Source of the DNA: Candidatus Lokiarchaeum ossiferum
GTDB lineage: Archaea > Asgardarchaeota > Lokiarchaeia > Sigyniarchaeales > Promethearchaeaceae
Reading direction: 5' to 3'
DNA: 32,000 nt
NCBI GenBank assembly: GCA_025839675.1
Contig: CP104013.1
Span: 3,840,001 to 3,872,000 of the forward strand
The position numbers and the translations under genes are program-made. Under the pieces are notes generated by a model that saw only the letters and a list, made by a program, of their open reading frames with translations, was not told where the DNA came from and searched no databases. Below, one piece after another: positions 888-27,693 of the stretch (position 1 is the stretch's first letter; each line of letters starts with the position of its first letter).

Positions 888-1838
888 ATGCCCTTTCTCT
901 CCCGAACCCAACTCATAAAGCTCTTTCAATCATCTAAATTTATCCCCGAATCAATAAAGGGACAAAATTACATCGCTGATTATGCCCTGTGTCGGAAGAT
1001 TGGAAATTGTGCAAAGGGTTCCGAGCAATATAAATGCATTTTAGAAATTGGCCCTGGATTTGGGGCTTTCACAGATTTTTTATTCCCCTTGTCGGAAAAG
1101 GTATGCGTGGTAGAAAAAGATCCAAAATCCTCACAATATTTGATGGATTATTATAAATCTCGTATTCCCACCCAAGTGATCAATTCACGGGAAATTCAAT
1201 ATTTGGGTTATGTGCCCTTGAAAACGCAATTAACCATAGTTGAAGATGATTTTTTTTCACTTCCTACTCCTGACGCGGAATTAATAATTTCTAACATTCC
1301 CTTTACCCATGTATTTGAGTTCATATTAAAACTAACAGAATCCTGGAATTCCCGGCGCGCGCTTCTTATTCTACAAAAAGAAGTCATGGATCATATTCTG
1401 GCTCGACCTAACCAATCGGGGTACACAATTCTTTCTGTCATTTGCGGTTTCTTTTTCGATTCTCAAATCTTGCTTGAAATTCCATCAAAATCCTTCTATC
1501 CTAAACCAAAAGTATCTTCGCTGCTAATTGAACTTCTTCCGAACAAAAATTTGAATCTTGAACTGATTTCAAAAGAAGAAAGGAAAAATTTCCTTGTTTT
1601 TCTAAAAACTGTTATGCAATTCAAGGAAAAACATCTGCAAAATACTTTTCTTTTAATCCAAGCACAGAATCCCTTGTTTTTTGAAAATTTTCCACATTTT
1701 AAGGATGCCTTAAGAGAACTAAATCTAAATCGGTCCGTTTTACGGGAAATGACCCCTGCAGCGATATTTCATCTAATGCAAAAATCGAGAAAAAAAATGA
1801 ATGATTTACGAGCGAATTGTGAGCCGATAGGCTCGTAA
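888..1838 (+). CDS. ksgA: 16S/18S rRNA (adenine-N6,N6)-dimethyltransferase, KsgA/Dim1/Erm family
   Basis: Motifs seen: GQNY(I) (family GQHFL), SAM motif I EIGPGFGAFT, VEKD, DDFF, motif IV SNIPF, QKEV..HILA.P....Y..LSV, and F.PKPKV.S.L. GGAG at 873-876 lies 11 nt before the ATG. Confidence 0.85.
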   Translation: MPFLSRTQLIKLFQSSKFIPESIKGQNYIADYALCRKIGNCAKGSEQYKCILEIGPGFGAFTDFLFPLSEKVCVVEKDPKSSQYLMDYYKSRIPTQVINSREIQYLGYVPLKTQLTIVEDDFFSLPTPDAELIISNIPFTHVFEFILKLTESWNSRRALLILQKEVMDHILARPNQSGYTILSVICGFFFDSQILLEIPSKSFYPKPKVSSLLIELLPNKNLNLELISKEERKNFLVFLKTVMQFKEKHLQNTFLLIQAQNPLFFENFPHFKDALRELNLNRSVLREMTPAAIFHLMQKSRKKMNDLRANCEPIGS

Positions 1839-3409: not shown

Positions 3410-6400
3410 TTGAAATCATTAATTCAAAGACAACAAACTAAGAAGCTCATGATTATTTTTGTGTTTTATTCCCTCATCTTTACTCAACTATATCCTTTTA
3501 TTGATTGGAACGCTTTTTATGGAAATTTTTCTGTATCAGAGACTAAGCTCCCCATTCACATTCCACAGTCCGGCCTTGATGATCCGATTCAAGTCTTCCA
3601 TGATGATTGGGAAGGTTTTAGCGGATCGGGCGGATCAGATTCTCCCTATCTTATTGAAAACCTTGTTATTGATGCAGGGGGAAGTTCACATGGGATTGAT
3701 ATTTATGATTGCTCGTTATACTTTGAAATTCGAAACTGCACAATATATAACGCAAAAAATGGTATTTGGTTGAATACACTTTCACCAGGTATAGCCAAAG
3801 TGTATAACAACACAATTTATACATGTCGAGGGATTTCTGGTCAAATCAGTGGCAATGGAATAGGGTTATACTCAACGAATGGAATTGAAATATACAATAA
3901 TACCATTTATGATATCGAAGGATATTCTGAAGCTTTTAGCGGAAATGGTATGTTACTTTATATTTCTCATTATAATGAGGTTCACCACAACACGATTTAT
4001 GATATTTGGAGCGGGGCTGTTGCTTCAACAGCTCATAGTGGAAATGGAATTATGCTTACATCAGCCCAATATAATAATATCAGTTATAATCAAATTTCCT
4101 CATGTTCGAGTGCTACAACCTCAGATACTTATGCAGGGAATGGCATAGACAACTACCACGGAGATTTTAATCTCATTTCACACAATACAATTGATGATAT
4201 AAGAGGTGGCCTCGGAAGATATTCCGGGAATGGAATCACGTGCAATAATTATTACGGTATTACCGAGGAGAACATCATTGAAGAAAACACCATTTCGAAT
4301 TGTTATGGAGGGACGAATTATTATACTTCAAATGGGATCTTAGTGCATGGAGAAAGCGAATACTTGGTTGATTCTACCCAAGTATTGAATAATTATATCA
4401 TTAATTGCACCGGAGGAGATGATATCGCGGACGGAAATGATGCTCATTGCGGATGTGGGATTAATTTAGATCGGACTATTCACTCAATGGTCTCGGGAAA
4501 TGAAATTTATAATTGTAAGGGAAATTCCGGTGCGAGATATGCCGGAAATGGAATCATGAATTTCAACTCGGAGTATACAACAGTTACACAAAACATCATT
4601 GAGAATTGCTCAGGGTATGGAAATTGGGCTGGTAATGGGATTGCCAGTGCGTATGAAAATTACAATACCATATCTTTCAACAATATCAGCAATAGTTTTT
4701 GTAAAGGAACCGGAGCGATACTTTCAGGAAATGGTATAATAAACTATCAAACGGATAACACGCATATCGATTATAATCGAGTTTCTAATGCCAATGCAGG
4801 AACCGGGACATATTCCGGCAATGGTATATATCTCTGTTATGAATTCGATTATAGTTTTGTGATTGGAAATATTGTGCGCGATTGTGTTAAGTTACCACAA
4901 GCTGGAGCAGGATGGAGCATTTTAGGAACCAAAGATTTCGATATCAATGATGTGTTTTATAATGATGCAGGGGATGGATGGATCGGGGTGTGTTATCGAG
5001 ATAATGTTGATAATCGTAATGATAACAATAATTATGTTGGGAATACCGCGGATGTGATTTATGTTGATTATGGTGACAGATGGCTAATAGAAGATAATAC
5101 GGTGAATACGATATGTACGTATGGTTCGAAAGATAATTGTATTGTCGGGAATTTTAAAAACGATGGAAATGCCCCTCAATTTAACTGGTATTCAAACAAT
5201 AAAGCAGAGAATTATTTTCTGAAAATCACCTCCCCCGAAGAATGCAAAAATTATAAGGGATGTGGCGGTATTCGGGCCGAATACAAATGGCAATACTTTG
5301 GTTATGAATTAGATCAGTTAAATATGTATCTTGATGGAGCGCTTGATATTATCCATCGACCAGATAAGGAATTCTATATCCCGTGGAAAGCAAATGGATC
5401 ACATTCTCTCTTATTTCAGGCTTCAGATACCAGCACTACATCTTTTGAATATGAATCCAAACCGATAACCTATACATTAGAAAATATGGCCAGCACTGAA
5501 GTTGTGAATATTGTACGAAATACCCAAGAAGGAGGTATTGATGATCCCTTAGCTTTAAGTTACTGGGATACCAGTTTAGACGGAGATGGTACTCAATTTA
5601 GCCCTTATGAGATAAAAAATCTCAATATTGAAATTCCAGCAAACTCTCCCATAGGAACAGCAGGAATCTCAATCTCCAATACAGATGCGTTCTTTGTTTT
5701 GAAAGATTGCGTAATCGTAGGAGGAGTGGGACATTATGGAATTACCATTTCGAACGTGCAAAATGCCCGTATCGTAAACTGTACGATTATCGGCATTCCC
5801 ACTACTTATGTTCCAAATGACATTAGTGCAACTAGCTATCCTATTGAACGAGGGATTTTCCTGGATGAAGATTGTGTAAATAATTCGATTGAACAATCTG
5901 ATATTTACCGGACCCTTTCATCAGGGATTAAAGTGGATGGAAATACAAATTGGATTCAAAATAATGTTATCGCAAATGCTCAGAATAATGGAATAACCAT
6001 TTCAGGGAATGGAAACACACTGTTGAATAATGAAATTGTTCCATTTGGAGGACCAGACTATTCCGATTATCATTTTCTAAAAGGAGAAACCGATCACACT
6101 TTAAACGGAATTCTAATAGAAGGGGGTGGATCAGAAAACACGATTGAAGATTGTATTATTGCAGGGTATCCGGTTTCGGGAATCAATATTTCAACCAGTA
6201 TCTGTGAGGAAAATGTAATCGTAGGAAATAGGATTGAAAATTGTGCGGTTTTGATACATGATCAGGGAGCAAATACGCATTTTGCTAAGATTACGACACC
6301 ACTTGATGGAGCATATTTCACGGGCAACAATCCCTTAAATGAAGGATATTACTCAGGAACAGAAGGATTCCAAGATGTCGCAGATGGGGATTTACCAGTA

Positions 6401-9400
6401 GACTGGTCCATAGTGACGAATACTCCGGATGCAGTGGCCTTAGTGATGGATGAAAAAACAGATTTATATGGATATACTCATAAAAAAGTCTTGCACTGTG
6501 ACACTGGTCAAGGCGAGGAAGCCAATATTTCTCTCGTGCATGATTTTAGTGCGAATCAATCCCAAGGTACCATCGAATTTTGGGTGATGAAACAAAGTAC
6601 CGCCACCGCAACCATGAATTTTACCTTCATGGGAACTTCGGGAAATCTCTTTTCACTCTTTCTCGAGAATGGGGAATTTTGGTTTTCGGATAACACCACT
6701 ATCAACAATACTCACCAAGAATTTCACGATCTCTTCTGGTATCGGATCTGTGTTGACTTTATGGATAGCGGAACCTATCTCGGACTTGGAGATCACAGTT
6801 ATCAATTCCAAATTTTTAATAGAGAAGGAGATGTGCTTCTTTATGCCTCGGATCCTGCATCATTTACCACAACGGGTAATTTTACAGGATTTGACACCCA
6901 TATCGCAACGCACAACAGCTCTGCATCCAGTATCTATTTCGATGCTTTTGGCTATTCTTGGAGTCCGGATTATCGCTTAGGGAATAATGCCTATGAAGGA
7001 ATGTTGATCTCCCGGTCACTGCAAGAAGGGTTTAAATCTTGGGATTGGCAAGGTTATTCCCTAAATGATGCTGAAATAATAGATTTGCCATTCTTTAGTG
7101 ATGTCGTAATTCCTTTACCAAACTCACTTGGTATACAAACTCTTCAGTTATATGCAAATGACACGAGTGATTTTCAAACAATTTCACCCGTAGTTCATTT
7201 TTCATATTATTTTGATCGAAAACTCAATATAATAAAACACACCGAAAACGATGAAGTGGTAGCGGAATATACCATGTTTACCGGGAGCGGAATTATTAAG
7301 ATGGATCCAGCTACGGCTTTAAATCTTACATTAGAGTATAATACTATGAAAAATGATGATTTATGTAATACCAATGCGTCTCTATATTATCGAGTGAGTC
7401 ATGATTTCTGGAAAAAAGCATATAGCACGGGGAGTCTTTTTGGCGAAAACACCCTCAATTACCTCATTGGCCCAGATAATTACGACTTAGGTGATTCGGT
7501 AGACTATTACTTCGGATTCCAACAATACGATTTAAGTGGGCGATTCGTTCAACAATATTATTGGACTCAAACGGGAGTTAAATATTTCAACGAAACGGCA
7601 CAAATGGATGCCTTTCATAAAAAAGTAAGTCCGGTCCCCTATCAACTGACGTTGAATTATAGTGCCTATTTTCAAGCTGAAAAGACACAAAATTTTACCA
7701 CAGTTGAAGGTCACGAAGTATCCATGACAGGATTTGCACCTATTGCCATCAATGACTTTTCCGTCAAATTTTACAACACCACTGACGATATGACCGCATT
7801 TCAAGCCCTGTTTGATGAGCACGTATCCGCACTTACACATAAATTTAAAGAAAATTCCAGTATTATTACGGAAAGTAACTCCTTCCCACCAATCACGGAA
7901 GAGAATGAATGGATAAGTCCCTTTATTCTTCCAATCGGGGGAACATATGTCGAACAAGAGAGCACTATCCTTATCCCGAACATGCTTTATGAAACAAATG
8001 AAGCAAGTGAGGATAATAAATTGATGTTTACCAGAGAAGCCCTCAATCTTACCTATAAAGGAATCAAGATGGATTGGTTTAATGGAAAACGTGCCTTACG
8101 CGAATTTGAAACCTTTACCGGAGAGAGTTTTACGTGTATTCGGTTCGATTATTATACGGGAATCATGGTCTATTTCAATTATAATGATTTCACAGAGGGT
8201 GCAGGAAAACGAATCTTCTTTGGGTTAAAGGATAACAACCAAAGTTACCCAATCAACCTTAAGATTGAAATGCGCGAAGAACTCAACGATACGGATCAAG
8301 ATTTTGTGAACATGACTCTAGATGGGATCCTCTATGATCCGCCTGGAGATCGAAGCTACACCGAAATGTCTGCCGGAACTTCCATTACCACCGGTTGGTC
8401 CTTAGAAACCCAATCGGGAACAGATTTTCAAAAAGAACATCAACATCTCTTCGTAGGGTTTGGCTTTGAATCGGATGAATATAAGATTGATACCGAGGGT
8501 GATATTTATGAATTTGAACTCACTCATACGTATACCCATACGCTCAGTTCTTCCAAAGATTATACGAACTCAGAGTTGATAGGTCCAGGAAGAGGTGATT
8601 TGTATTTTGGAACTGGAACCTATATTTTCTATTATTTCTATGTAAATAATTATTACTTTGTGGTCAATCAATCTGATCCGGTGAATTTCCCCTATGATGA
8701 TATTTTGGTTCTGACGGTTGGTTCCCGAATTGAATATACAATTACACCAAATACCTCGTTTAGTGTCTTAGGATCTCATTTAGAAGATCTCGGAATGTCC
8801 GAGCTCGCATACGAAAATATTTTTGAAGATAATGAAATTTCAGGAGCTGAACGGAACTATGTGCAAGAATTGGAGTATTCCCCTCTACTATGGACTGCAG
8901 GAGGCGTGAATGAATTCGGATATTCTAGTGCCAGGACCGAAACGTCTTCCTTCCATTCCTATATGGAATACAGCAATGACACCTTTTTCACGTGGAGTCA
9001 ATGTTTGACCATGGGTGTCGGAGGTTCTTTTGGAGTGGGTGTCGAGGTGGACTGGTCCACGGGATGGAATATGTTTGAAACCTCCGGGAAAATTGCTACG
9101 CTTAATACTTGGTCCCGAGAATTTCTCAGCTATGAGTCAGTCGTCGGAGAAGAGCAAATCCTAGTACATTTGGAAGATGATGATGGTGTGCCTCTGGGAC
9201 ACCATGATCAATTCAAAATGCGGATTTTTAACGATACTCGCTATAGTTCAATAGGTTTCTTAATTGACAGTGATGCGAGTTATTCATCAAGTCCGCATGA
9301 ACCGTTTACTGGGGATCGGCGACCGCCCACTTTGTGTGATTTCTGCGGTTTGCCACCATATCTCAGAGATTCTGTCTCGTTGAATGTCCGCGCCTTTGAT

Positions 9401-10141
9401 GGAGAATTAGATGGCATTAGCGAAAACAACATTTGGAAAGTAAATTTCTACTATGATGATGATCCCACCTTTGGATCGGATTCAATCTTCATTGGAGTCC
9501 AAGGAGAAATGGAAAAAACCGCGTTGGACGATCCGGAAGAATTTGGACTGACTTGGGATTGCTCTCTTCTCGAAGGCGATTATTTTATCTTTGCCGAAGC
9601 CTATGATTATGGAACCCCAATACCGAATAAACTGGTATCAGACCCTCAGTTGGTGCATATTGATAATACCGCTCCGTCAGAATGTCATCTAATAGCCTAT
9701 GAACCTTATTATGATGCAATTCCTTTGTATGCCACTGCGACCGATGATGAAACGGATATTGCGTATATTGAATATTGGGATGGAGATCCGGTAACGGAAG
9801 GAAGTATCTTACTGGGTTGGAGTGATGTGAGCAGTGATTCTTATCGTTTCATCTGGAGTACCGATCCAAATGGTGATGATAATGGGATCCACCAAATTTA
9901 CGCAAAAGCCTTTGATTTGGCAGGAAATTCGAAAGTATCATCCGGACTCACCCTAAATGTCACCGATAGTCAAGCCGTGAGCGATCAATCGGATCAAACC
10001 GACCAAACGGATCTGCCCGATCAAGACGATGAATCACCTATCGATTGGCAAAACGCGCTTCTCGCAGGGGGAATGTCCACTGCCGGGATCTTGATCATTG
10101 GCTTAATCGTAGTCGGCGGCAACAAATTCCTAAAAAAATGA
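3410..10141 (+). CDS. Giant (2243 aa) cell-surface protein: signal peptide, two NosD-like right-handed beta-helix modules, LamG/ConA-like domain, large unassigned region, Ig-like domains, acidic linker, C-terminal TM anchor
   Basis: Uninterrupted 6.7-kb ORF. TTG start, with an alternative ATG at 3449. N-terminus is K-rich then hydrophobic. About 11 (S/A)GNG(I/M) coils occupy aa 140-490, and a second beta-helix starts around nt 5600. A LamG-like 'GTIEFWVMKQ...GNLFSLFLENGEFWF' lies at about nt 6330-6990. Ig-like modules with 'HIDNTAP' boundaries and 'AFDLAGNS' lie at about 9330-9960. An SDQSDQTDQTDLPDQDDES linker follows, and the tail is GGMSTAGILIIGLIVVGGNKFLKK*. Confidence 0.9.
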   Translation: MKSLIQRQQTKKLMIIFVFYSLIFTQLYPFIDWNAFYGNFSVSETKLPIHIPQSGLDDPIQVFHDDWEGFSGSGGSDSPYLIENLVIDAGGSSHGIDIYDCSLYFEIRNCTIYNAKNGIWLNTLSPGIAKVYNNTIYTCRGISGQISGNGIGLYSTNGIEIYNNTIYDIEGYSEAFSGNGMLLYISHYNEVHHNTIYDIWSGAVASTAHSGNGIMLTSAQYNNISYNQISSCSSATTSDTYAGNGIDNYHGDFNLISHNTIDDIRGGLGRYSGNGITCNNYYGITEENIIEENTISNCYGGTNYYTSNGILVHGESEYLVDSTQVLNNYIINCTGGDDIADGNDAHCGCGINLDRTIHSMVSGNEIYNCKGNSGARYAGNGIMNFNSEYTTVTQNIIENCSGYGNWAGNGIASAYENYNTISFNNISNSFCKGTGAILSGNGIINYQTDNTHIDYNRVSNANAGTGTYSGNGIYLCYEFDYSFVIGNIVRDCVKLPQAGAGWSILGTKDFDINDVFYNDAGDGWIGVCYRDNVDNRNDNNNYVGNTADVIYVDYGDRWLIEDNTVNTICTYGSKDNCIVGNFKNDGNAPQFNWYSNNKAENYFLKITSPEECKNYKGCGGIRAEYKWQYFGYELDQLNMYLDGALDIIHRPDKEFYIPWKANGSHSLLFQASDTSTTSFEYESKPITYTLENMASTEVVNIVRNTQEGGIDDPLALSYWDTSLDGDGTQFSPYEIKNLNIEIPANSPIGTAGISISNTDAFFVLKDCVIVGGVGHYGITISNVQNARIVNCTIIGIPTTYVPNDISATSYPIERGIFLDEDCVNNSIEQSDIYRTLSSGIKVDGNTNWIQNNVIANAQNNGITISGNGNTLLNNEIVPFGGPDYSDYHFLKGETDHTLNGILIEGGGSENTIEDCIIAGYPVSGINISTSICEENVIVGNRIENCAVLIHDQGANTHFAKITTPLDGAYFTGNNPLNEGYYSGTEGFQDVADGDLPVDWSIVTNTPDAVALVMDEKTDLYGYTHKKVLHCDTGQGEEANISLVHDFSANQSQGTIEFWVMKQSTATATMNFTFMGTSGNLFSLFLENGEFWFSDNTTINNTHQEFHDLFWYRICVDFMDSGTYLGLGDHSYQFQIFNREGDVLLYASDPASFTTTGNFTGFDTHIATHNSSASSIYFDAFGYSWSPDYRLGNNAYEGMLISRSLQEGFKSWDWQGYSLNDAEIIDLPFFSDVVIPLPNSLGIQTLQLYANDTSDFQTISPVVHFSYYFDRKLNIIKHTENDEVVAEYTMFTGSGIIKMDPATALNLTLEYNTMKNDDLCNTNASLYYRVSHDFWKKAYSTGSLFGENTLNYLIGPDNYDLGDSVDYYFGFQQYDLSGRFVQQYYWTQTGVKYFNETAQMDAFHKKVSPVPYQLTLNYSAYFQAEKTQNFTTVEGHEVSMTGFAPIAINDFSVKFYNTTDDMTAFQALFDEHVSALTHKFKENSSIITESNSFPPITEENEWISPFILPIGGTYVEQESTILIPNMLYETNEASEDNKLMFTREALNLTYKGIKMDWFNGKRALREFETFTGESFTCIRFDYYTGIMVYFNYNDFTEGAGKRIFFGLKDNNQSYPINLKIEMREELNDTDQDFVNMTLDGILYDPPGDRSYTEMSAGTSITTGWSLETQSGTDFQKEHQHLFVGFGFESDEYKIDTEGDIYEFELTHTYTHTLSSSKDYTNSELIGPGRGDLYFGTGTYIFYYFYVNNYYFVVNQSDPVNFPYDDILVLTVGSRIEYTITPNTSFSVLGSHLEDLGMSELAYENIFEDNEISGAERNYVQELEYSPLLWTAGGVNEFGYSSARTETSSFHSYMEYSNDTFFTWSQCLTMGVGGSFGVGVEVDWSTGWNMFETSGKIATLNTWSREFLSYESVVGEEQILVHLEDDDGVPLGHHDQFKMRIFNDTRYSSIGFLIDSDASYSSSPHEPFTGDRRPPTLCDFCGLPPYLRDSVSLNVRAFDGELDGISENNIWKVNFYYDDDPTFGSDSIFIGVQGEMEKTALDDPEEFGLTWDCSLLEGDYFIFAEAYDYGTPIPNKLVSDPQLVHIDNTAPSECHLIAYEPYYDAIPLYATATDDETDIAYIEYWDGDPVTEGSILLGWSDVSSDSYRFIWSTDPNGDDNGIHQIYAKAFDLAGNSKVSSGLTLNVTDSQAVSDQSDQTDQTDLPDQDDESPIDWQNALLAGGMSTAGILIIGLIVVGGNKFLKK
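3842..4828 (+). repeat. Protein-level periodic repeat: about 11 beta-helix coils marked by (S/A)GNG(I/M) every 29-40 residues
   Basis: G of the GNG motif falls at aa 148, 178, 211, 243, 273, about 308 (SNGI), about 348 (CGCGI), 379, 408, 440 and 470. I checked the DNA at 3851 (GGC AAT GGA ATA) and 4817 (GGC AAT GGT ATA). Confidence 0.8.
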
Positions 10142-10343: not shown

Positions 10344-12047
10344 CTATTTTTTCTTCTTTCTCATTCGTTTTAACTTCGCATTATAAGAACTCCGAGACCG
10401 ACTTTGCCCCATGGCAGCGTAGAAAGATTTTTTATCACTTATTTTTTGTTCTACCGCTTGTGCCTCTTCCGATTTCCATTCATCCATTTCATCTTGAACA
10501 AGTTCATTCAATTCAGAGATATCCATATCATATTGTCCGCCTAAAGAGACATTACGAGCCATGGTTTGGTGGACTTGCGCCTCGGCAAATTTAATATCAC
10601 CCTTGGATCGTAATTTGGATGCCTTGGAGAGCTCAAAAGCCGTTGCAATTTTTGGGCTGTATGCTTTCTTGAAATTTTCCATATCCGGTGCTATTTCTAT
10701 TTCTTGACGATTGATGCGCATTTTTCGATTTCCTTGGGTATCAAGGTACTCTAATTGGATTTGAACAGGTATTTTGGTCCCTACGGGCAATTTGGTATCC
10801 TTTTGCTGAAATTTTAAATAAATTTCCCGATCGGGATAAAAAGCCCCCAATTTGATTGGATCTCCTCTTTTAATCTTATCTAAGGATTGAAGCACCTCCG
10901 CACCTTGAATTTCTTCCAAGACTAAAAATTCTGGAGAATAGATCCGCATCACTACATTTCGAGCAATGTAGTTGGTTCGGTGAAAACTTCCGAAGGCGGA
11001 TTCAACCTGATCTGCGGTAATGAATAACATTTGTCCCCCAGTATAGTCGGTGACTTTTCCAATCACATCTAAAGCAACTGAATTACCTCCTCCTTGTTCA
11101 CGTACCCCCACCATATCAACAATAATATTATTTTCTAAGCATCGTTTTGCAATATTGGAATAAAATCCTGCATCTTTTGAATCCTTGCCCAAACTATTTT
11201 CAATTGATCCTAAACCAACATTTGCGAGTCCATCTGTCAATAAAATGACTTTTCCACCTGTTTTTTTCGCTTGGGATTTCTGACTGGCAATGATGGTTTG
11301 AATTCCCATAAAAAGCCCTGGTCCGAGTGCAGTCATACTGCGATCAGTCATATTTTTGACGATTTTCGTCCAACCTTCATATATTTTTTCAATAGGTTGA
11401 AATGGGTATTTTTCAACTATTCTAGCAATTTCCTTCTCCATTTTGTTTTCTTTGAAGAAAAGAGGCCCATCCTCTACAATAATTTGTTTTTCTGGTGTGG
11501 GATATATGAACACATCGGATGAAAAAGGGATCAGAACAAATTTGGTTGCTGGAAAATCTGCCGTCAATTGGTGAATATTCTGCACCAACGCGTGTTTGAC
11601 TGCTTCTAACTTGCCACCTGCCATCGATCCGGAAACATCAATAACAGCGACTTGGATCGGAAAACCAGATATTGTCTTCTCCATTTTCATTTTCGAGAGA
11701 GCGTCATCTTCCTCCTTTCGTATTTCTTCAAGTAAAAATGCCATGTCTTCCATAGAAGAAACATCAGTGGATTCAGGTTCTATTCCATCCTTTAATAGAT
11801 GAAGAGCTTGATCATGCGAAACCGAATTTTCTTTCAGGCAAAATTCGCATTTATATGTAAAATTTTCCCCACTTTTTTGCAAGTGAGATTGATTGGTTAA
11901 AATTGAATTACAGAAACTACAAATAATCGGTTGATCTTGGATTTCTTTAGCAGTGGATAACTCACCAAAATTTAATGCGGTAATTAACGGAAAATCCTCG
12001 GGTTTTTCCACTTGTCGGGACACTTTACCAAAACTAAATTTGAACAT
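10344..12047 (-). CDS. Zn-ribbon + von Willebrand A (intact MIDAS) + beta-rich domain protein; Sec23/Sec24-like domain order
   Basis: C43-x2-C46-x20-C67-x2-C70; MIDAS D137-V-S-G-S141; LLTDG; the vWA-typical 'VDMVGV...VTDYTGGQMLF'; then a beta-rich region of about 120 aa and a charged helical tail ending KKKK. Confidence 0.85.
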   Translation of the reverse strand: MFKFSFGKVSRQVEKPEDFPLITALNFGELSTAKEIQDQPIICSFCNSILTNQSHLQKSGENFTYKCEFCLKENSVSHDQALHLLKDGIEPESTDVSSMEDMAFLLEEIRKEEDDALSKMKMEKTISGFPIQVAVIDVSGSMAGGKLEAVKHALVQNIHQLTADFPATKFVLIPFSSDVFIYPTPEKQIIVEDGPLFFKENKMEKEIARIVEKYPFQPIEKIYEGWTKIVKNMTDRSMTALGPGLFMGIQTIIASQKSQAKKTGGKVILLTDGLANVGLGSIENSLGKDSKDAGFYSNIAKRCLENNIIVDMVGVREQGGGNSVALDVIGKVTDYTGGQMLFITADQVESAFGSFHRTNYIARNVVMRIYSPEFLVLEEIQGAEVLQSLDKIKRGDPIKLGAFYPDREIYLKFQQKDTKLPVGTKIPVQIQLEYLDTQGNRKMRINRQEIEIAPDMENFKKAYSPKIATAFELSKASKLRSKGDIKFAEAQVHQTMARNVSLGGQYDMDISELNELVQDEMDEWKSEEAQAVEQKISDKKSFYAAMGQSRSRSSYNAKLKRMRKKKK

Positions 12048-12072
12048 ATTGTTACGAAATCATAAATCCCCC

Positions 12073-12081
12073 TATATAAAA
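12073..12081 (-). promoter_or_regulatory. TATA box for the vWA gene
   Basis: The minus strand reads TTTTATATA 26-34 nt upstream of ATG (12047). This is consistent with a leaderless or short-leader archaeal promoter. Confidence 0.5.
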
Positions 12082-12110
12082 TTAAAGGGAAAAAAAAAAA
12101 ATTGAAGTAT

Positions 12111-13430
12111 CTATATTTCAAGCAAACTCTCGATCTTAGGCTTGCTTTCGTTTTCATTCCCGATTTTTTGCCCTATTTTCTCTTCATCCTCAAATCTATG
12201 TCCGAATTTCACCAAATACATGACAATTAATACTATTCCGACAATACTAACAATGAAGGGTGTAATAAAGTGGACACTTCCCATTAAAAACCCGCCAATC
12301 GCTCCGGTTGGTAATGCCCCAAATCCTCTAACAAACGAGACCATTCCATAAGATTCCCCCTTTCGAGATTCATCTAAATCTGTCAGTATCATATTTTCTG
12401 AAGGAATGAATGTAGATGCAACTACTCCAAATAGTATTTGAGTTAAGACCATTGAAATTATTACTATTGATGTACTTCCTCCAGACCATAGTAGTGCAGT
12501 AATAATATGAATCGCGAAAATGAGAATACCTGTCGCTTCACTCACGATCAAGATTTTCTTTTTACCATACTTATCGGTTAATTTTCCCGCTGGAATTTGG
12601 AATAACATCGTTGACACATTAAACCAAATACTTAAGAATGCAAGGTTTTCCAATGTAAATCCATAATAACTTTGCAATCCTGCATTAAGGACGGAGTTGG
12701 ATACATCCCAAACGAAGAAATCAAGTGTAAGGAATATGATCGCAGTACGAATTTTTGAATTACTAAACACTTCTCTCCAACTTTTTTTAGTTCTGGAAAT
12801 TTCTGTATTTCTTTTAGGCAGATATGTAGCAATATCAGTGATGAAAAGAATTTCCATGATCCAGATCATACAAGTTATTCCTCCAAATATCATAAAATAC
12901 GTGACAAAGGAATAACCTGTTTGATTGACAAACACCGCTCCTCCGATCGTTGAACCGAAATATAAAAATGCCATAATACCGAAAATACGCCCTAAACCAT
13001 TTTTAGAATCACTATTTGATTCCGCAATTAAGATCTGGCGATTTGTATTGCTTGACATAAAACCAATAGCTCGAAGGAAGATACTAACGATGAGGAGATA
13101 CAGATTATTCTTGTTTACAAAGAACAAAATCCCCAATCCAACAAGTGCTATAGGTTTTGAAATGATCATCATCTTCTTACGACCAAACTTATCTGACAGT
13201 TTTCCAGAAATTGGTGCAGGAATGAACCACAATACGGTAAAAAGTGTGGAAAACAATCCTGTTATGAAGAGATTGTTGTCTGTGACTTCATAGAGAAAGG
13301 GTATATAAGCTATATTAATACAACTTTCACCAAAACCAGAAATTAAATTTCCGATCATAAATACCCAGAGATTTAGACGCTTCGCTTTTTTGCTTATATC
13401 GAATTTTTGAGTTTTATTCATATTTTTCAC
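12111..13430 (-). CDS. Major facilitator superfamily (MFS) transporter
   Basis: About 12 hydrophobic helices. MFS motif A occurs in both halves (GKLSDKFGRKKMMI and GKLTDKYGKKKILI). GGTGA lies 8 nt upstream of the ATG on the minus strand. Confidence 0.9.
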   Translation of the reverse strand: MKNMNKTQKFDISKKAKRLNLWVFMIGNLISGFGESCINIAYIPFLYEVTDNNLFITGLFSTLFTVLWFIPAPISGKLSDKFGRKKMMIISKPIALVGLGILFFVNKNNLYLLIVSIFLRAIGFMSSNTNRQILIAESNSDSKNGLGRIFGIMAFLYFGSTIGGAVFVNQTGYSFVTYFMIFGGITCMIWIMEILFITDIATYLPKRNTEISRTKKSWREVFSNSKIRTAIIFLTLDFFVWDVSNSVLNAGLQSYYGFTLENLAFLSIWFNVSTMLFQIPAGKLTDKYGKKKILIVSEATGILIFAIHIITALLWSGGSTSIVIISMVLTQILFGVVASTFIPSENMILTDLDESRKGESYGMVSFVRGFGALPTGAIGGFLMGSVHFITPFIVSIVGIVLIVMYLVKFGHRFEDEEKIGQKIGNENESKPKIESLLEI

Positions 13431-14515: not shown

Positions 14516-16744
14516 ATGAATCCAAAAATTCAACATCACAAATTTATCTTTGTTCTTTCGTTTCTCCTAATCATTGGAGGAAGCATCTTTTTAAAAGAAC
14601 AATTTAAAGCAAATTCTAATAGCTTCGATATTCTTCCTGTATCTGCTCAAAATACATCAAAACTTGAGAATAGGGAATCTATTGAAATTGACATGTTAGA
14701 AGACTCTCTTTCTGATTATCCTTTTATTCTAGGAAATGGGAGCTTCTCTGATCCCTATATTATTCAAAATCTCTCCATTTCTCCAGATAATGGTGTTTGT
14801 ATCAAAATTGAAAATAATAGAGATTATTTCTTGATTAGTAATTGTGAGTTTCTTATTTTTAGCTATGGAATAATTATATTAAATTCAACCAACATCTTTA
14901 TTCATAATTGTATTTTTAGCAATCTTGAATTTGGAATACATCTTGTGGAAAGTCAAAATACTACAATCCAAAACAATTTATTCAGCCACTTACGAGAAGG
15001 AATTCTCCTTCAGGGTTCAAAAATCAATTCCATATGTACAAATACATTTTCTCACATCAGATTCGATGCGATTTCAATGATTGGGGCATGCTACTCGAAT
15101 TTAATTTCCTTTAACGCGATCTTTAATTCTGGGACTGGTATTCTAATGGAAAGAGGTAATGATAATAATCGAATTATTTCAAATAATATCTCAAATCAAT
15201 ACCGAAATGCTCTTTCAATTGATGGATGTTCAAATACCTTAATAAAAAACAATTTTATGTCGAGAAATGGTGAATTTGCGATAAATTTCCAAGATAATGA
15301 GGAAGAATCTACTAATACTACGATTAACAATAACACTTTGCATTTCAACCGCAAAGGTGCTATTAATTCGGCTTCAGAAGATAATCATCATATTTCTGAA
15401 AACGATATAAAGAAATCATTCCGTCAAATAGCTATCCTTACGTGTTTATATGTGTTGGCTCCTGGAGTAGGTATTTTCTTCCTCGTACTTATTATCAAAC
15501 GAAATTTCTCTTCTCAAGTGTTGGAATTTTGTTCAGAAAACGCATATCTGAGCGGTATTCTATTCTATATTGGAGCAAATATTCTGTTTATTGTACTTTA
15601 TCTTAATGGGAGACTTTACACGTTATGTAATTATTGCATAGATCCAACTTCTGAGCTAGCAATTATTTTCAATATCGTGGTATTTATTCTCTATATTCCA
15701 ATAGTATCTAACAAAATAAGTCGTAAAAAAGAATTTCTAACAGGGATGTTAATTTCATCCCTATTTTTGAGTTTCATCCATGTGATATTATACTTCATAT
15801 CTTTATCCACCATTGAGATTTCTGCATACTATAGGTATATATTCCAGTATGGTCTACAAATTTCAATTTTTTATTTGTTTCACACAGCCCTTATACTTTT
15901 TTGTTCCTTGGGGTTAAAGTTTAATAAGTCATCAAATGAAATGATGCTAGATAAAACAGTAAAGCTACCGAATATTTGGATAAAAATTAATTCAATTTTT
16001 CTAATTGTGTTGAATTTAATCCTTTTTCTTGTTCTTTATTTTGATCTTACCTTTATGTTGTCTGGGATATTGATATCCATTAATTTACTTCTTTTCAAGA
16101 AGAACTTAAGAGTGACTCTTTATCTTGTCATTCTAATAAATTTAATTCGAATGATATTTACTGTTTTTTGGGTGAACCACCAATTCTGGCCTTATTTTGA
16201 CTATCTAAATACTTATGGTTCCATATTCGTTATTTTATTTACAATTTTTGAAATTGGCTTAATATCAAGACAAAGAAATGAACTCACATCAGATTCAATG
16301 TTAATTTTTTTTGGAATTATTATTGCCTTATTTCTTCTGTGTGTTCCAACTTTTCTTTTAACTTTACCCAAAGTTGTAGAACCACCTATATATCGCCCTG
16401 TCGATGAACGTGTCTTCTTTCGTTTGTTTTCAATTATTCTAAACTCGTTGTGGATTATTTTGGGTTTGGCTTTTTCTATAGAATTATGTCAAATTTTAAA
16501 TCTAAAAACGAATCGTGTTTCAAGAAATATCATTAAAATTGGGTGGTTGTTAATGTCTATGATCATAGGGTTTGTCTTGATGGTTTCCATTGTAATTGCA
16601 ATAAAATATCTTTATGAATCAGGGACAAGTACATCAGAAAGGCTAACAGATATTCTGATATTTTTGTTTCCAAGTTCTATTTTGTCAAGTCTATTTTATA
16701 TCAAGTCCTATCGGAGTAAAAAAATACTCACCAACGATACTTAA
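14516..16744 (+). CDS. Membrane protein: signal anchor + NosD-like beta-helix ectodomain (about 250 aa) fused to a polytopic membrane domain of about 430 aa
   Basis: N-cap GNGSFSDPYIIQNLSISPDNGVCIKI. This is followed by N/I/S-rich coils of about 22 aa (IHNCIFSN, IQNNLFSH, ISNNISNQ, IKNNFMSR, INNNTLHF, ISENDIKK), then about 12 hydrophobic segments. Confidence 0.8.
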   Translation: MNPKIQHHKFIFVLSFLLIIGGSIFLKEQFKANSNSFDILPVSAQNTSKLENRESIEIDMLEDSLSDYPFILGNGSFSDPYIIQNLSISPDNGVCIKIENNRDYFLISNCEFLIFSYGIIILNSTNIFIHNCIFSNLEFGIHLVESQNTTIQNNLFSHLREGILLQGSKINSICTNTFSHIRFDAISMIGACYSNLISFNAIFNSGTGILMERGNDNNRIISNNISNQYRNALSIDGCSNTLIKNNFMSRNGEFAINFQDNEEESTNTTINNNTLHFNRKGAINSASEDNHHISENDIKKSFRQIAILTCLYVLAPGVGIFFLVLIIKRNFSSQVLEFCSENAYLSGILFYIGANILFIVLYLNGRLYTLCNYCIDPTSELAIIFNIVVFILYIPIVSNKISRKKEFLTGMLISSLFLSFIHVILYFISLSTIEISAYYRYIFQYGLQISIFYLFHTALILFCSLGLKFNKSSNEMMLDKTVKLPNIWIKINSIFLIVLNLILFLVLYFDLTFMLSGILISINLLLFKKNLRVTLYLVILINLIRMIFTVFWVNHQFWPYFDYLNTYGSIFVILFTIFEIGLISRQRNELTSDSMLIFFGIIIALFLLCVPTFLLTLPKVVEPPIYRPVDERVFFRLFSIILNSLWIILGLAFSIELCQILNLKTNRVSRNIIKIGWLLMSMIIGFVLMVSIVIAIKYLYESGTSTSERLTDILIFLFPSSILSSLFYIKSYRSKKILTNDT

Positions 16745-20376: not shown

Positions 20377-21282
20377 ATGGTAAGACTTTCATTATTTGAA
20401 ACAAAAAAAAGTCGCTTTGCCCCCTCACGTATCGGCGAAACATCAAATCCGTTAATGAAATGGGATATGATCTTTAATTTACTATTTATTACGGCGTTCG
20501 TTTGGGTGTATGACCAACCTGTACTGGCTATATGGATTTTCATCCAAATTTTTATCTTTTCATTCTTTTCTTTCAATTATCGGGGACTAAGTGTGTCCCT
20601 CCTATTTTTGATCTTATCTGGGATCCCCTTTTGGCTCTATATCAGTAATCCCCAAAGAAATGGTGCCGATATTATCTTGTTTGTTGGGATCATTTTAGCT
20701 GTCTATGGAGTCTTTTGGATCTTTATTGCCCTTAAAAATAATAAAGCCTATTTGGATTCATTAAAACCCCAAACTTGCCCTATTTGTGAAACGGAAAAAC
20801 ATGAATTTGTGCAACATTTAGGTCGTTTCATGTGTACGGATTGTTTTTACAAAGAAGCCTTTGAAGTAGTCGAACATGATGGAATTGAAATTTTCAAATG
20901 GGATTATAACTTTTTGAAGTTTCTGGAAAACCAAATTGAAAAGCCCATTCCATTGTATAAATCTACAGATCGAGACGAGATTGATTGGGAAAAGTTACCT
21001 GAAGAAGAGTTTTTCGGTTATATCATTGATGAAAAAAATATTAAGGCATTGTCCCTACCAAAAGCTGGAATTAAAGCAATTCCCAATGAAATTGGTTTGT
21101 TAACACATATTAAATTTTTAAATTTACAAGGAAATCAGCTGGTTGATCTCCCTCTTTCTATTGAACGAATTGCTTCTTTGCGGTACTTAAACGTTCAGGG
21201 AAACATTATGGAAATCATTTCCCAAGATTTAGAATACGTCTTTCGTTTTTTAAAAAAACGTAAGTGCATCATTCTTGAATAA
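20377..21282 (+). CDS. Membrane protein with cytosolic Zn-ribbon and C-terminal leucine-rich repeats
   Basis: About 4 TM segments, CPIC-x17-CTDC, then LRR units 'IKALSLPKAGIKAIPNEIGLLTHIKFLNLQGNQLVDLPLSIERIASLRYLNVQGNIM'. TTTATAG lies about 24 nt upstream of the ATG. Confidence 0.7.
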   Translation: MVRLSLFETKKSRFAPSRIGETSNPLMKWDMIFNLLFITAFVWVYDQPVLAIWIFIQIFIFSFFSFNYRGLSVSLLFLILSGIPFWLYISNPQRNGADIILFVGIILAVYGVFWIFIALKNNKAYLDSLKPQTCPICETEKHEFVQHLGRFMCTDCFYKEAFEVVEHDGIEIFKWDYNFLKFLENQIEKPIPLYKSTDRDEIDWEKLPEEEFFGYIIDEKNIKALSLPKAGIKAIPNEIGLLTHIKFLNLQGNQLVDLPLSIERIASLRYLNVQGNIMEIISQDLEYVFRFLKKRKCIILE

Positions 21283-27649: not shown

Positions 27650-27693
27650 AATAAAACCAACATCTTGAAATCTGTTGACAAAGGCGAAATTTG

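What the first reader, a model, noticed from the sequence alone, without database searches (positions are those of the whole stretch)
10344..12047. Zn-ribbon + MIDAS-vWA + beta-sandwich protein with the domain order of COPII Sec23/Sec24
Seen in the sequence:
- a C43-x2-C46-x20-C67-x2-C70 ribbon (nt about 11838-11921)
- a vWA fold with intact MIDAS (D137-V-S-G-S141, later LLTDG)
- a beta-rich segment of about 120 aa (RNVVMRIYSPEFLVLEEIQG ... VQIQLEYLDTQGNRKMRINRQEIEI)
- a charged helical tail

Established: zinc finger -> alpha/beta trunk (vWA-like) -> beta-sandwich -> helical is the architecture of eukaryotic Sec23/Sec24. Archaeal homologues have been reported only sporadically, in Asgard lineages.

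Inference: against yeast Sec23 as I remember it, the ribbon lines up (C..C..ILN...W.C..C...N versus CSFCNSILTN...YKCEFCLKEN). A sandwich strand also lines up (QFITTYQHSSGTNRIRVTT versus QIQLEYLDTQGNRKMRINRQ).

Caveats: the MIDAS site is intact, there is no gelsolin domain, and no Sar1-like GTPase or Sec13/31-like gene is in the window. It could be a generic prokaryotic vWA protein.
Basis: partly seen in the sequence, partly recalled or inferred. Interest (0 to 1): 0.7.

Follow-up and report, generated by a model that had tools for sequence, protein, structure and literature searches.

The report
Asgard Sec23/24-like protein with intact MIDAS
This gene from the cultured Asgard archaeon Lokiarchaeum ossiferum encodes a genuine relative of the eukaryotic COPII vesicle-coat proteins Sec23/Sec24; that protein family is already published, but this protein keeps a metal-binding site that COPII has lost and resembles a little-studied, non-COPII eukaryotic family more closely.

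Summary
ORF 10344-12047 (-) encodes a 567-aa protein with a Cys4 ribbon (C43/C46/C67/C70), a vWA domain with a complete MIDAS site, a beta-sandwich and a helical tail. It is 100% identical to NEF87_003241 of Ca. Lokiarchaeum ossiferum.

The Sec23/24 reading is supported:
- Pfam Sec23_trunk scores above its cutoff.
- A 60-member family profile aligns to yeast Sec24 in one stretch, from ribbon into the helical domain (E 8e-19).
- The AF2 model (pLDDT 87) has Sec23/Sec24 chains as its top 46 PDB fold matches (E down to 8e-28).

It is not a COPII subunit. It has no gelsolin domain, there is one copy per genome, and the MIDAS is intact. Asgard Sec23-like proteins without gelsolin are already published (PMC11914678), so the finding itself is known.

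What I add: all five MIDAS residues are invariant in the Asgard family, whereas Sec23/24 has lost them. The closest eukaryotic relatives by sequence are the non-COPII cpRAS-VWA/VWA-only proteins (hhalign E 2.8e-80, collinear end to end). A rough tree leaves Asgard, that family and Sec23/24 as an unresolved three-way split.

The most likely function (inferred) is a metal-dependent adaptor at the membrane, possibly coupled to a small GTPase.

The parts
10344..12047 (-). Complete gene (567 codons plus stop) for the Sec23/24-like protein; identical to NEF87_003241 of Ca. Lokiarchaeum ossiferum.
11970..12047 (-). N-terminal peptide and beta-strands (aa 1-26, MFKFSFGK...). The start is conserved across the Asgard family (P20 invariant), and a similar N-terminal peptide occurs in eukaryotic VWA-only relatives.
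11817..11930 (-). Cys4 zinc ribbon (aa 40-77; C43, C46, C67, C70, N74), aligned with the Sec23/Sec24 zinc finger.
11664..11816 (-). Acidic, poorly conserved linker (aa 78-128), partly low-confidence in the model (pLDDT below 50 at 92-97 and 110-125). Residues 99-107 form one strand.
10974..11663 (-). vWA / Sec23-24 'trunk' domain (aa 129-358).
   Evidence: PF04811, 36.4 bits against a cutoff of 27, aa 133-344
11625..11639 (-). MIDAS motif 1, D137-V-S-G-S141. The other MIDAS residues are T239 (nt 11331-11333) and D272 (nt 11232-11234, within LLTDGLAN).
10683..10973 (-). Beta-sandwich domain (aa 359-455), including the invariant Q429 that is shared with Sec23/24.
   Evidence: PF08033, 18.2 bits, below cutoff for this single sequence; 55/60 family members hit it
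10347..10682 (-). Helical C-terminal domain (aa 456-567, pI 9.6). Its first helices align to the start of the Sec24 helical domain. No Pfam Sec23_helical hit. No gelsolin domain follows.
10347..10382 (-). Polybasic C-terminal tail (aa 556-567, AKLKRMRKKKK; net charge +8 over the last 12 residues).
12073..12080 (-). TATA-like element TTTATATA, 25 nt upstream of the ATG and preceded by a T12 run, inside the 63-nt spacer after the upstream MFS-transporter gene. This suggests the gene has its own promoter and a near-leaderless mRNA (read from the sequence, not tested).

Best explanation
Shown: the gene encodes the Lokiarchaeum ossiferum member of the Asgard 'Sec23/24-like' family. It is a soluble protein of about 64 kDa built from N-terminal strands, a Cys4 zinc ribbon, a vWA 'trunk', a beta-sandwich and a helical domain. 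It is homologous over its whole length to the COPII inner-coat proteins Sec23/Sec24 but has no gelsolin domain. [quoted passage not shown] Its nearest eukaryotic relatives by sequence are the non-COPII cpRAS-VWA/VWA-only proteins, which share the same ribbon, MIDAS, sandwich, helical tail and often the same polybasic C-terminus. Inferred: it works as a metal-dependent adaptor, not as a coat GTPase-activating protein. A Mg2+/Mn2+ ion held by D137, S139, S141, T239 and D272 would be completed by a carboxylate (or phosphate) from a partner protein. The basic helical domain and the KKKK tail would hold the complex at the anionic cytoplasmic face of the membrane. Coupling to a small GTPase acting in trans is plausible but not shown. 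In evolutionary terms it represents the state before (or beside) the split that gave the conservative MIDAS-type family and the divergent Sec23/Sec24 pair in eukaryotes.
For: - Identity: 100% match to NEF87_003241.
- Homology to Sec23/24: Pfam Sec23_trunk above its cutoff, with collinear weaker Sec23_BS and zinc-finger hits. Family level: trunk 58/60, BS 55/60, zf 25/60. The family profile aligns to yeast Sec24 at E 8e-19, one stretch covering profile 42-478.
- Structure: AF2 model pLDDT 87.2, pTM 0.87. Foldseek top 46 PDB hits are all Sec23/24, E 8e-28 to 6e-20, TMq 0.57-0.68.
- No gelsolin or Sec23_helical Pfam hit in any of 60 members.
- MIDAS D-S-S-T-D is invariant in Asgard 17/17, eukaryotic MIDAS-type 16/16 and bacterial relatives 8/8. 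It is degenerate in yeast Sec23 (D-T-E-R-S), human Sec23A (D-C-gap-R-G) and yeast Sec24 (D-S-S-F-G).
- Nearest eukaryotic relatives: the profile search of 1.84 billion representatives gives eukaryotic cpRas-type proteins at 210-256 bits, against about 70 bits for Sec24. hhalign of Asgard against that family gives probability 100%, E 2.8e-80, 449 columns. BLASTP against Capitella R7TED3 gives E 2e-29. The Entamoeba member models with the same fold and the same PDB ranking.
- Basic tail: net +8 in the window protein, and net positive in 38/42 non-Thor Asgard members.
- GTPase hints: a Ras-like domain is fused to the same module in eukaryotes (PMC2430557). In Thor genomes the gene lies in a same-strand cluster with an Arf-family GTPase and Roadblock proteins.
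Against: - No ligand, metal, membrane or GTPase interaction has been measured for any member; the mechanism rests on motif conservation and analogy with other vWA/MIDAS proteins.
- The GTPase/Roadblock synteny is confined to Thor-type genomes and is absent from the window and from Loki, Hermod, Odin, Frey and Jord loci.
- Thor members have acidic rather than basic tails, so membrane docking through the tail cannot be a family-wide property.
- In PMC11914678, three Asgard Sec23-like proteins bound an Asgard Arf only weakly and independently of nucleotide state in yeast.
- The branching order of Asgard, eukaryotic MIDAS-type and Sec23/24 is unresolved.
Confidence: 0.6

Rival explanations
1. Working proto-COPII inner coat. 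The protein is recruited to membranes by an Asgard Arf/Sar-like GTPase, selects cargo and helps bend membrane, as Sec23/24 does. It would act as a homodimer, and the GAP and cage functions would be supplied by other proteins or be absent.
For: Whole-length fold and sequence homology to Sec23/24. Basic helical domain and tail. Thor synteny with an Arf-family GTPase. L. ossiferum is rich in trafficking-type ESPs and shows occasional internal vesicles (PMC9834061).
Against: No gelsolin domain, which in Sec23 carries the catalytic arginine and part of the Sar1 interface (PMC11914678). One gene per genome, so no Sec23/Sec24 pair. No Sec13/31 or Sar1 gene nearby. Tested Asgard Sec23-like proteins showed only weak, nucleotide-independent binding to an Asgard Arf (PMC11914678). 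An invariant MIDAS is unexplained by this model, because COPII dispensed with it.
Confidence: 0.15
2. ArnB-like cytosolic signalling module. Like Sulfolobus ArnB with ArnA, the vWA-sandwich-helical core is a phosphorylation-controlled regulator (for example of surface structures). Here the zinc ribbon that ArnA supplies in trans is fused in cis, and there is no membrane-trafficking role.
For: ArnAB (8s05) and the ArnB paralogue (5a8j) are the next structural neighbours after Sec23/24, with E 4e-17 and 8e-13. ArnB also has a metal-occupied MIDAS (PMC12852372). Bacterial relatives share the vWA-sandwich-helical core and a C-terminal motif, and one of them is fused to an FHA phospho-threonine reader. 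The window protein has a Ser-rich C-terminal stretch (SRSRSS).
Against: No FHA, kinase or phosphatase gene lies in the window, and no such neighbour is conserved across Asgard loci. The Asgard proteins are closer to Sec23/24 than to ArnB in fold score. They share the ribbon, N74, Y296 and Q429 with the eukaryotic families but not with the bacterial ones.
Confidence: 0.15
3. Generic prokaryotic vWA protein whose resemblance to Sec23/24 is limited to the common vWA fold.
For: Pfam VWA and VWA_2 also hit the N-terminal 50 residues of the domain. Many bacterial vWA proteins share the LLTDGLAN motif.
Against: Homology extends through the ribbon, sandwich and first helices in one alignment. Sec23_trunk outscores VWA. 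The fold search ranks 46 Sec23/24 chains first. The ribbon-bearing group separates from bacterial relatives in 200/200 bootstrap trees.
Confidence: 0.02

Closest known systems
Asgard 'Sec23-like' / Sec23/24-domain eukaryotic signature proteins (described in PMC11914678; cited as an Asgard ESP in PMC7613921 and PMC10307638)
   Same: It is a member. It has the same four domains (zinc finger, trunk, beta-sandwich, helical), no gelsolin domain, and Sec23/24 as the top structural match. It shares 22-80% identity with Loki-, Thor-, Hermod-, Odin-, Frey- and Jord-type homologues.
   Different: Nothing essential. The published description does not mention the vWA/MIDAS site or the cpRAS-VWA family. 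The Loki-type members carry a polybasic C-terminal tail, whereas Thor-type members end in acidic residues.
COPII inner-coat proteins Sec23 and Sec24 (for example PDB 1M2O, 1M2V)
   Same: Collinear zinc ribbon, vWA-like trunk, beta-sandwich and start of the helical domain. Shared Cys4, N74, Y296 and Q429. Foldseek E down to 8e-28; profile E 8e-19 to Sec24.
   Different: No gelsolin domain, and hence no arginine-finger GAP element. The MIDAS is intact here and degenerate in Sec23/24. There is a single gene rather than a Sec23/Sec24 pair. It is about 200 residues shorter. Identity is only about 15-17%.
Eukaryotic cpRAS-VWA proteins and their VWA-only relatives (Elias and Novotny 2008, PMC2430557; for example Entamoeba invadens EIN_474480, Capitella teleta R7TED3, 'circularly permutated Ras protein 1-like' of Diadema and Tubulanus)
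   Same: This is the closest eukaryotic family by sequence: 210-256 bits to the Asgard profile, hhalign E 2.8e-80, BLASTP E 2e-29. The invariant motifs are the same (Cys4, DxSGSM, TALGP, TDGxAN, sandwich Q). There is no gelsolin domain. The N-terminal peptide is similar and the C-terminus is often polybasic. The fold and PDB ranking are the same.
   Different: The eukaryotic proteins have CTDG where Asgard has LTDG. They carry an insertion after the DxSGSM motif, and many have an N-terminal circularly permuted Ras domain or other extensions. Their function is unknown as well.
ArnB (with ArnA) of Sulfolobus acidocaldarius and bacterial vWA-beta-sandwich proteins (PDB 8S05, 5A8J, 4FX5; Chloroflexota/Planctomycetota proteins of about 420 aa found here)
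   Same: vWA with a functional MIDAS, followed by a beta-sandwich and a helical C-terminal region. These are the next-best structural neighbours. Bacterial relatives share LLTDGLAN and a C-terminal FY..SR.R motif.
   Different: The zinc ribbon is absent (bacteria) or supplied in trans by ArnA. They hit generic Pfam VWA strongly rather than Sec23_trunk. They lack N74, Y296 and Q429. They are linked to FHA/phospho-signalling.

Membership tests
COPII Sec23/Sec24 | Cys4 zinc finger N-terminal to the trunk | tested here: met
   C43/C46/C67/C70 are invariant in 60 homologues and align with the four Cys of yeast Sec23, human Sec23A and yeast Sec24. Pfam zf-Sec23_Sec24 is weak for this single sequence (E 0.2), but 25/60 family members hit it.
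COPII Sec23/Sec24 | Trunk domain (PF04811) | tested here: met
   36.4 bits against a cutoff of 27, aa 133-344; 58/60 members hit it.
COPII Sec23/Sec24 | Beta-sandwich/barrel domain (PF08033) | tested here: met
   The single sequence is below the cutoff (18.2 against 33.5 bits). However, 55/60 members hit it, best E 6e-10, and it is aligned in the profile-to-Sec24 match and in the fold matches.
COPII Sec23/Sec24 | Helical domain (PF04815) | tested here: inconclusive
   No Pfam hit in any of 60 members. The profile alignment does run into the first helices of Sec24's helical domain, and Foldseek alignments span about 560 columns.
COPII Sec23/Sec24 | C-terminal gelsolin-like domain (in Sec23 it carries the arginine finger for Sar1 GAP activity) | tested here: not met
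   The protein ends at residue 567 with helices. No gelsolin hit in 60 members. PMC11914678 reaches the same conclusion.
COPII Sec23/Sec24 | Two paralogues forming a Sec23-Sec24 heterodimer | tested here: not met
   Each of the 32 Asgard loci comes from a different genome, so there is one copy per genome. Only one L. ossiferum protein appears among the hits.
COPII Sec23/Sec24 | Partner genes or proteins: Sar1, Sec13/31, Sec12 | tested here: not met
   None is in the 32-kb window. Partners elsewhere in the genome cannot be tested with these tools.
COPII Sec23/Sec24 | Degenerate, metal-free MIDAS position in the trunk | tested here: not met
   The window protein has the full D-S-S-T-D set. Sec23 and Sec24 lack the Thr and the second Asp, and Sec23 also lacks both Ser.
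Asgard Sec23-like ESP family (PMC11914678) | Asgard origin; zinc finger + trunk + sandwich + helical, no gelsolin; Foldseek returns Sec23/24 | tested here: met
Eukaryotic cpRAS-VWA / VWA-only family (PMC2430557) | Four-Cys finger upstream of a VWA/Sec23-trunk domain, with conserved DxSGSM, TALGP and TDGxAN motifs | tested here: met
   The same invariant columns occur in both alignments; hhalign E 2.8e-80.
Eukaryotic cpRAS-VWA / VWA-only family (PMC2430557) | N-terminal circularly permuted Ras domain (cpRAS subgroup only) | tested here: not met
   No GTPase domain in the window protein. The VWA-only subgroup lacks it too.
Eukaryotic cpRAS-VWA / VWA-only family (PMC2430557) | Falls inside the eukaryotic clade | tested here: not met
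   Asgard and eukaryotic sequences form separate clades (156/200 and 187/200 bootstraps). They pair as sisters in only 76/200 replicates.
ArnB-type prokaryotic vWA-beta-sandwich regulators | MIDAS vWA + beta-sandwich + helical C-terminus | tested here: met
ArnB-type prokaryotic vWA-beta-sandwich regulators | FHA/zinc-finger partner (ArnA) and kinase/phosphatase control | tested here: not met
   The zinc ribbon is fused in cis. No FHA, kinase or phosphatase gene is in the window. Phosphorylation itself cannot be tested here.

The most novel reading that the evidence does not exclude
[quoted passage not shown] They would be the archaeal counterpart of a third, MIDAS-bearing eukaryotic branch of the Sec23/24 superfamily: the cpRAS-VWA/VWA-only proteins, present in Amoebozoa, Opisthokonta, stramenopiles, ciliates and excavates. 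On this reading the ancestral function of the whole fold was metal-dependent partner binding coupled to a small GTPase, and COPII Sec23/24 arose in stem eukaryotes by duplication, loss of the MIDAS and gain of a gelsolin domain. I found no paper in the searchable library that connects the two families.
Probability: 0.35. Interest if true: 0.6.

Novelty: already known. Interest (0 to 1): 0.4.

Why it matters
Sec23/24 homologues are among the proteins cited as evidence that Asgard archaea had the beginnings of eukaryotic vesicle trafficking. This analysis confirms that the homology is real. It also shows that the archaeal proteins keep an ancestral metal-binding site that COPII abandoned, and that they are much more similar to an uncharacterised non-COPII eukaryotic family than to Sec23/24. 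That weakens a direct 'proto-coat' reading and suggests a specific, testable biochemical activity: MIDAS-dependent partner binding. Ca. L. ossiferum is one of the few cultured Asgard archaea, so localisation and pull-down experiments on this exact protein are feasible. The result would also give a first functional lead for the eukaryotic cpRAS-VWA family.

Tried and rejected
- NCBIfam gave only noise.
- I looked for a gene neighbourhood conserved across Asgard lineages. Only the Sec23/24-like gene itself is shared. The SMC-ScpA/ScpB and Roadblock/GTPase neighbours are synteny within Thor-type genomes only, so I did not use them as primary evidence.
- The first bootstrap with Biopython's distance calculator timed out. 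I redid it with vectorised Kimura distances.
- I considered spending the remaining large protein searches on collecting Sec23/Sec24 sequences. I rejected this because only the top 120 hits are listed, and these would all be close fungal relatives. Instead I verified yeast Sec23 and human Sec23A from PDB alignments, using a remembered sequence only as a lure (768/768 identical to 1m2o_A), and took yeast Sec24.
- The supplements of PMC11914678 are not held, so I could not check whether this exact protein is on their list. The L. ossiferum genome paper does not name Sec23 in its main text.
- Model coordinates are not exposed to scripts. I therefore could not check whether the N-terminal strands join the sandwich as in Sec23/24, where the MIDAS faces relative to the Sar1 and cargo sites, or the surface electrostatics.
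Full report
**1. Observation**

The window carries a 567-codon ORF on the minus strand at 10344-12047. Its product has Cys at 43, 46, 67 and 70 and only one other Cys (C303). It has DVSGS at 137-141, LLTDG at 269-273 and the quoted beta-strand sequences at 363 and 428. The gene follows an MFS-transporter gene (12111-13430, minus strand) after a 63-nt spacer that contains a TATA-like TTTATATA 25 nt before the ATG. It converges on a 2243-aa beta-helix surface protein gene (3410-10141, plus strand). The conserved N-terminus MF(K/R)xSF in homologues confirms the start codon.

**2. Source and family**

The protein is 100% identical to hypothetical protein NEF87_003241 of Ca. Lokiarchaeum ossiferum, on a 6.03-Mb contig. 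257 homologues were found; the named ones come from Lokiarchaeia, Harpocratesius, Freyarchaeia, Jordarchaeia and Thorarchaeia, and one Thor protein is already labelled 'SEC24 family transport protein'. A scan of species-representative genomes returned 32 Asgard loci (Thor, Hermod, Odin, Frey, Jord and Loki-type), one per genome. In a 60-sequence alignment reaching down to 22% identity, the invariant residues include the four Cys, N74, D137, S139, G140, S141, M142, T239, L241, G242, L270-G273, N276, Y296, G337, G338 and Q429.

**3. Is it a Sec23/24 homologue? Yes.**

- Single-sequence Pfam gives Sec23_trunk at 36.4 bits (cutoff 27), with collinear sub-threshold Sec23_BS (E 0.004) and zf-Sec23_Sec24 (E 0.2). 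Generic VWA covers only the first 48 residues of the domain.
- Across the family, Sec23_trunk hits 58/60 members, Sec23_BS 55/60 and zf-Sec23_Sec24 25/60. Sec23_helical and Gelsolin hit none.
- The family profile matches yeast Sec24 at E 8e-19 in one alignment from the ribbon (profile position 42) to the first helices after the sandwich (position 478). It also matches human Sec24A-D and Sec23 from yeast, human and Toxoplasma.
- An AlphaFold2 model built on the alignment is confident (mean pLDDT 87.2, pTM 0.87). Its 46 best Foldseek matches in the PDB are all Sec23 or Sec24 chains (E 8e-28 to 6e-20, TMq 0.57-0.68, about 550-650 aligned columns).
- Only after those come the Sulfolobus ArnAB complex (8s05, deposited as 'an archaeal ortholog of the Sec23/24 core motif'), a bacterial vWA protein (4fx5) and an ArnB paralogue (5a8j).

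**4. Is it a COPII subunit? No.**

The gelsolin domain is absent and there is one copy per genome rather than a Sec23/Sec24 pair. No Sar1, Sec13/31 or other trafficking gene lies in the window. The neighbours are an rRNA dimethylase, a ParE toxin, beta-helix surface proteins, an MFS transporter, methyltransferases, an LRR protein, an ASCH protein, a PadR/HAAS pair, GTP cyclohydrolase II and a MazE-like protein.

I tabulated the five MIDAS positions in an alignment that includes verified COPII sequences. Yeast Sec23 and human Sec23A came, where a remembered sequence used only as a lure proved 768/768 identical to PDB 1m2o_A. The results:

| Group | MIDAS positions (D, S, S, T, D) |
|---|---|
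| Asgard | invariant, 17/17 |
| Eukaryotic MIDAS-type | invariant, 16/16 |
| Bacterial relatives | invariant, 8/8 |
| Yeast Sec23 | D-T-E-R-S |
| Human Sec23A | D-C-gap-R-G |
| Yeast Sec24 | D-S-S-F-G |

**5. What is already known**

Asgard Sec23/24 homologues are an established eukaryotic signature protein (PMC7613921; PMC10307638; bioRxiv 2025.11.06.686947). PMC11914678 (Nat Commun 2025) analysed 'Asgard Sec23-like proteins' explicitly. It reported that all lack the gelsolin domain and key Sar1-contact residues, that Foldseek returns Sec23, and that three tested proteins co-precipitated only weakly and nucleotide-independently with an Asgard Arf in yeast. The authors nonetheless regard them as true ancestors of Sec23. 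That paper does not mention MIDAS, vWA or metal binding. The finding as posed is therefore already known.

**6. An unexpected closer relative**

I searched the Asgard profile against 1.84 billion cluster representatives and got 6319 hits, 617 of them at E < 1e-30. After about 40 Asgard-type representatives came hundreds of 500-965-aa proteins at 210-256 bits, roughly three times the score of Sec24. The named ones are eukaryotic:
- 'circularly permutated Ras protein 1-like' from the sea urchin Diadema and the nemertean Tubulanus;
- VWFA proteins from Capitella teleta and Entamoeba invadens;
- proteins from the choanoflagellates Salpingoeca and an acanthoecid;
- a protein from the stramenopile Chrysoparadoxa.

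Pfam shows Ras + zf-Sec23_Sec24 + Sec23_trunk + Sec23_BS in these proteins, or the last three alone. This is the cpRAS-VWA family and its VWA-only relatives, described in 2008 (PMC2430557). That paper noted the Sec23/24-trunk annotation and a possible four-Cys finger, inferred presence in early eukaryotes, and could assign no function.

Further comparisons:
- Nearly all of the 141 listed representatives keep CxxC...CxxC, DxSGS, T[AS]LG and (C/L)TDGxAN.
- In a 60-sequence alignment of the eukaryotic family the invariant columns mirror the Asgard ones.
- hhalign of the two family alignments gives probability 100%, E 2.8e-80 over 449 columns, from ribbon to helical domain.
- BLASTP of the window protein against the Capitella protein gives E 2e-29 and 25% identity over 440 residues.
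- The two families are collinear to the ends. The N-terminal peptides are similar (MFKFSF... against MLKAATSKAKF...), and the C-terminus is often polybasic (NAKLKRMRKKKK here against ETRLNKMKKNKK in P0234).
- The Entamoeba member models confidently (pLDDT 90.0, pTM 0.89) with the same order of secondary-structure elements. It gives the same PDB ranking: 46 Sec23/24 chains first, then 4fx5, ArnAB and 5a8j.

I found no paper containing both 'cpRas' and 'Asgard', and the main COPII evolution study does not mention this family. The library is incomplete, so this is absence of evidence only.

**7. Relationships among the families**

The eukaryotic MIDAS-type profile scores Sec24A at 72.5 bits and Sec23A at 37.9 bits. 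The Asgard profile scores yeast Sec24 at 70.9 bits and Sec23 at 31-38 bits. Both conservative families are therefore about equally far from COPII.

I built a rough neighbour-joining analysis: 44 sequences, 495 columns, Kimura distances, 200 bootstraps, rooted on bacterial vWA-sandwich proteins. Results:

| Grouping | Bootstrap replicates (of 200) |
|---|---|
| Ribbon-bearing group monophyletic against bacteria | 200 |
| Asgard monophyletic | 156 |
| Eukaryotic MIDAS-type monophyletic | 187 |
| Sec23/24 monophyletic | 184 |
| Eukaryotic MIDAS-type + Sec23/24 | 101 |
| Asgard + eukaryotic MIDAS-type | 76 |
| Asgard + Sec23/24 | 14 |

The order of the three clades is unresolved. Mean identities are 21.8% for Asgard-eukMIDAS, 17.4% for Asgard-Sec23/24, 16.7% for eukMIDAS-Sec23/24 and 18.9% for Asgard-bacteria.

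The safest reading is that the Asgard protein represents the undifferentiated state of a superfamily with two branches in eukaryotes: a conservative MIDAS-type branch and a fast-evolving COPII branch that lost the MIDAS and gained gelsolin. Whether it is specifically orthologous to the former needs a proper maximum-likelihood analysis.

**8. Deeper roots**

Bacterial proteins of about 420 aa (Chloroflexota, Planctomycetota, Bacteroidota, Cyanobacteria) match from the trunk to the C-terminus. They have DRSGSM, LLLTDGLAN and a C-terminal FY..SR.R motif also seen in Loki-type proteins, but no ribbon. They hit generic Pfam VWA strongly rather than Sec23_trunk, and one (L033, Anaerolineae) is fused to an FHA domain at E 3e-19. 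This echoes the ArnA(FHA+ZnF)/ArnB pair, whose vWA also holds a metal in its MIDAS (PMC12852372). The Cys4 ribbon fused in cis, N74, Y296 and Q429 are shared by Asgard, eukaryotic MIDAS-type and Sec23/24 but not by the bacterial proteins.

**9. How it most likely works**

Shown: the domain architecture, the invariant MIDAS, a basic helical domain (pI 9.6) and a tail with net charge +8 over the last 12 residues.

Inferred, from established knowledge of MIDAS vWA domains such as integrin I-domains and ArnB: a divalent cation held by D137, S139, S141, T239 and D272 is completed by an acidic side chain of a partner, which gives metal-dependent binding. The basic C-terminus would favour association with the anionic inner face of the membrane.

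Three independent hints tie the module to small GTPases:
- Sec23 binds Sar1.
- Eukaryotic relatives carry a fused Ras-like domain.
- In Thor genomes the gene heads a tight same-strand cluster: Sec23/24-like, Roadblock-like, Roadblock, Arf-family GTPase, Roadblock, with gaps of 7-36 bp in L014.

The Thor cluster is lineage-specific and absent from the window. Thor proteins have acidic tails, and the only experiment so far found no nucleotide-dependent Arf binding (PMC11914678). GTPase coupling therefore remains a hypothesis. I put about 0.6 on the overall 'MIDAS-dependent adaptor, not a working COPII coat' reading, 0.15 on a working proto-coat, 0.15 on an ArnB-like cytosolic signalling role and about 0.02 on 'generic vWA'.

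**10. Verdict**

The added value is threefold: the family-wide invariance of the MIDAS, the much closer and end-to-end similarity to the non-COPII cpRAS-VWA/VWA-only eukaryotic family, and the unresolved three-way relationship with Sec23/24. Together these argue against treating these proteins simply as proto-COPII. Interest is moderate (0.4). It would rise if the orthology to the MIDAS-type family and a GTPase-linked, metal-dependent function were demonstrated.

Noticed in passing
L011-L032 (Thor-type loci), e.g. L014:9944-14178: In Thor-type genomes the Sec23/24-like gene is followed on the same strand by a Roadblock-like ORF, a Roadblock/LC7 protein, an Arf-family small GTPase and another Roadblock/LC7 protein (gaps of 7-36 bp in L014). 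The GTPase is present in 16 loci. The cluster is absent from Loki, Hermod, Odin, Frey and Jord loci and from the window.
   Followed up: partly
P0153-P0261 (eukaryotic proteins from the representative search): This is a large eukaryotic family (cpRAS-VWA and VWA-only; Entamoeba, Capitella, Diadema, Tubulanus, choanoflagellates, Chrysoparadoxa) with the full zinc ribbon, MIDAS vWA, beta-sandwich and helical architecture. It has a diagnostic CTDGxAN motif where Asgard has LTDGxAN, and an insertion after DxSGSM. Its function is unknown, and no paper found links it to Asgard proteins.
   Followed up: yes
L033:2898-4529, L036:9866-11146, L042, L071, L041, L052, L039, L065: Bacterial vWA-beta-sandwich-helical proteins of about 420-600 aa share LLLTDGLAN and a C-terminal FY..SR.R motif with the Loki protein but lack the zinc ribbon. 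The Anaerolineae one (L033) is fused to an FHA domain, paralleling ArnA/ArnB.
   Followed up: partly
window 3410-10141 (+); also 14516-16744 (+) and 29103-30890 (-): A 2243-aa protein with right-handed beta-helix/NosD repeats, ending in a hydrophobic segment and a KFLKK tail (probably a membrane-anchored surface protein). Two further beta-helix/NosD proteins lie in the same window. Local G+C rises to 0.44 at 9-10 kb, against about 0.30-0.35 elsewhere.
   Followed up: no
window 595-849 (+) and 27691-28149 (+): A ParE-family toxin ORF (E 3e-13) and a MazE/AbrB-like antitoxin-domain protein. No cognate partner was examined for either.
   Followed up: no
window 24414-25001 (+) and 24994-26028 (+): A PadR-family regulator with a C-terminal zinc-ribbon overlaps by 8 nt a 344-aa protein with an N-terminal HAAS domain. 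This looks like a PadR/HAAS sensor-regulator pair.
   Followed up: no
window 12048-12110 (-): The 63-nt spacer upstream of the gene holds a T12 run and a TATA-like TTTATATA 25 nt before the ATG. This suggests an independent promoter and a near-leaderless transcript.
   Followed up: no
Asgard family alignment A1, C-termini: The charge of the C-terminal tail is lineage-specific. Of 42 non-Thor members, 38 have a net positive charge over the last 12 residues (27 of all 60 reach +4 or more). 17 of the 18 Thor-type members are net negative.
   Followed up: partly
window 20377-21282 (+), 21341-22105 (+), 26939-27649 (+), 888-1838 (+): Other annotated neighbours are a leucine-rich-repeat protein, an ASCH-domain protein, GTP cyclohydrolase II and a KsgA-type rRNA adenine dimethylase. 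The dimethylase is also near the homologous gene in loci L003 and L005. None has an evident link to the Sec23/24-like gene.
   Followed up: no
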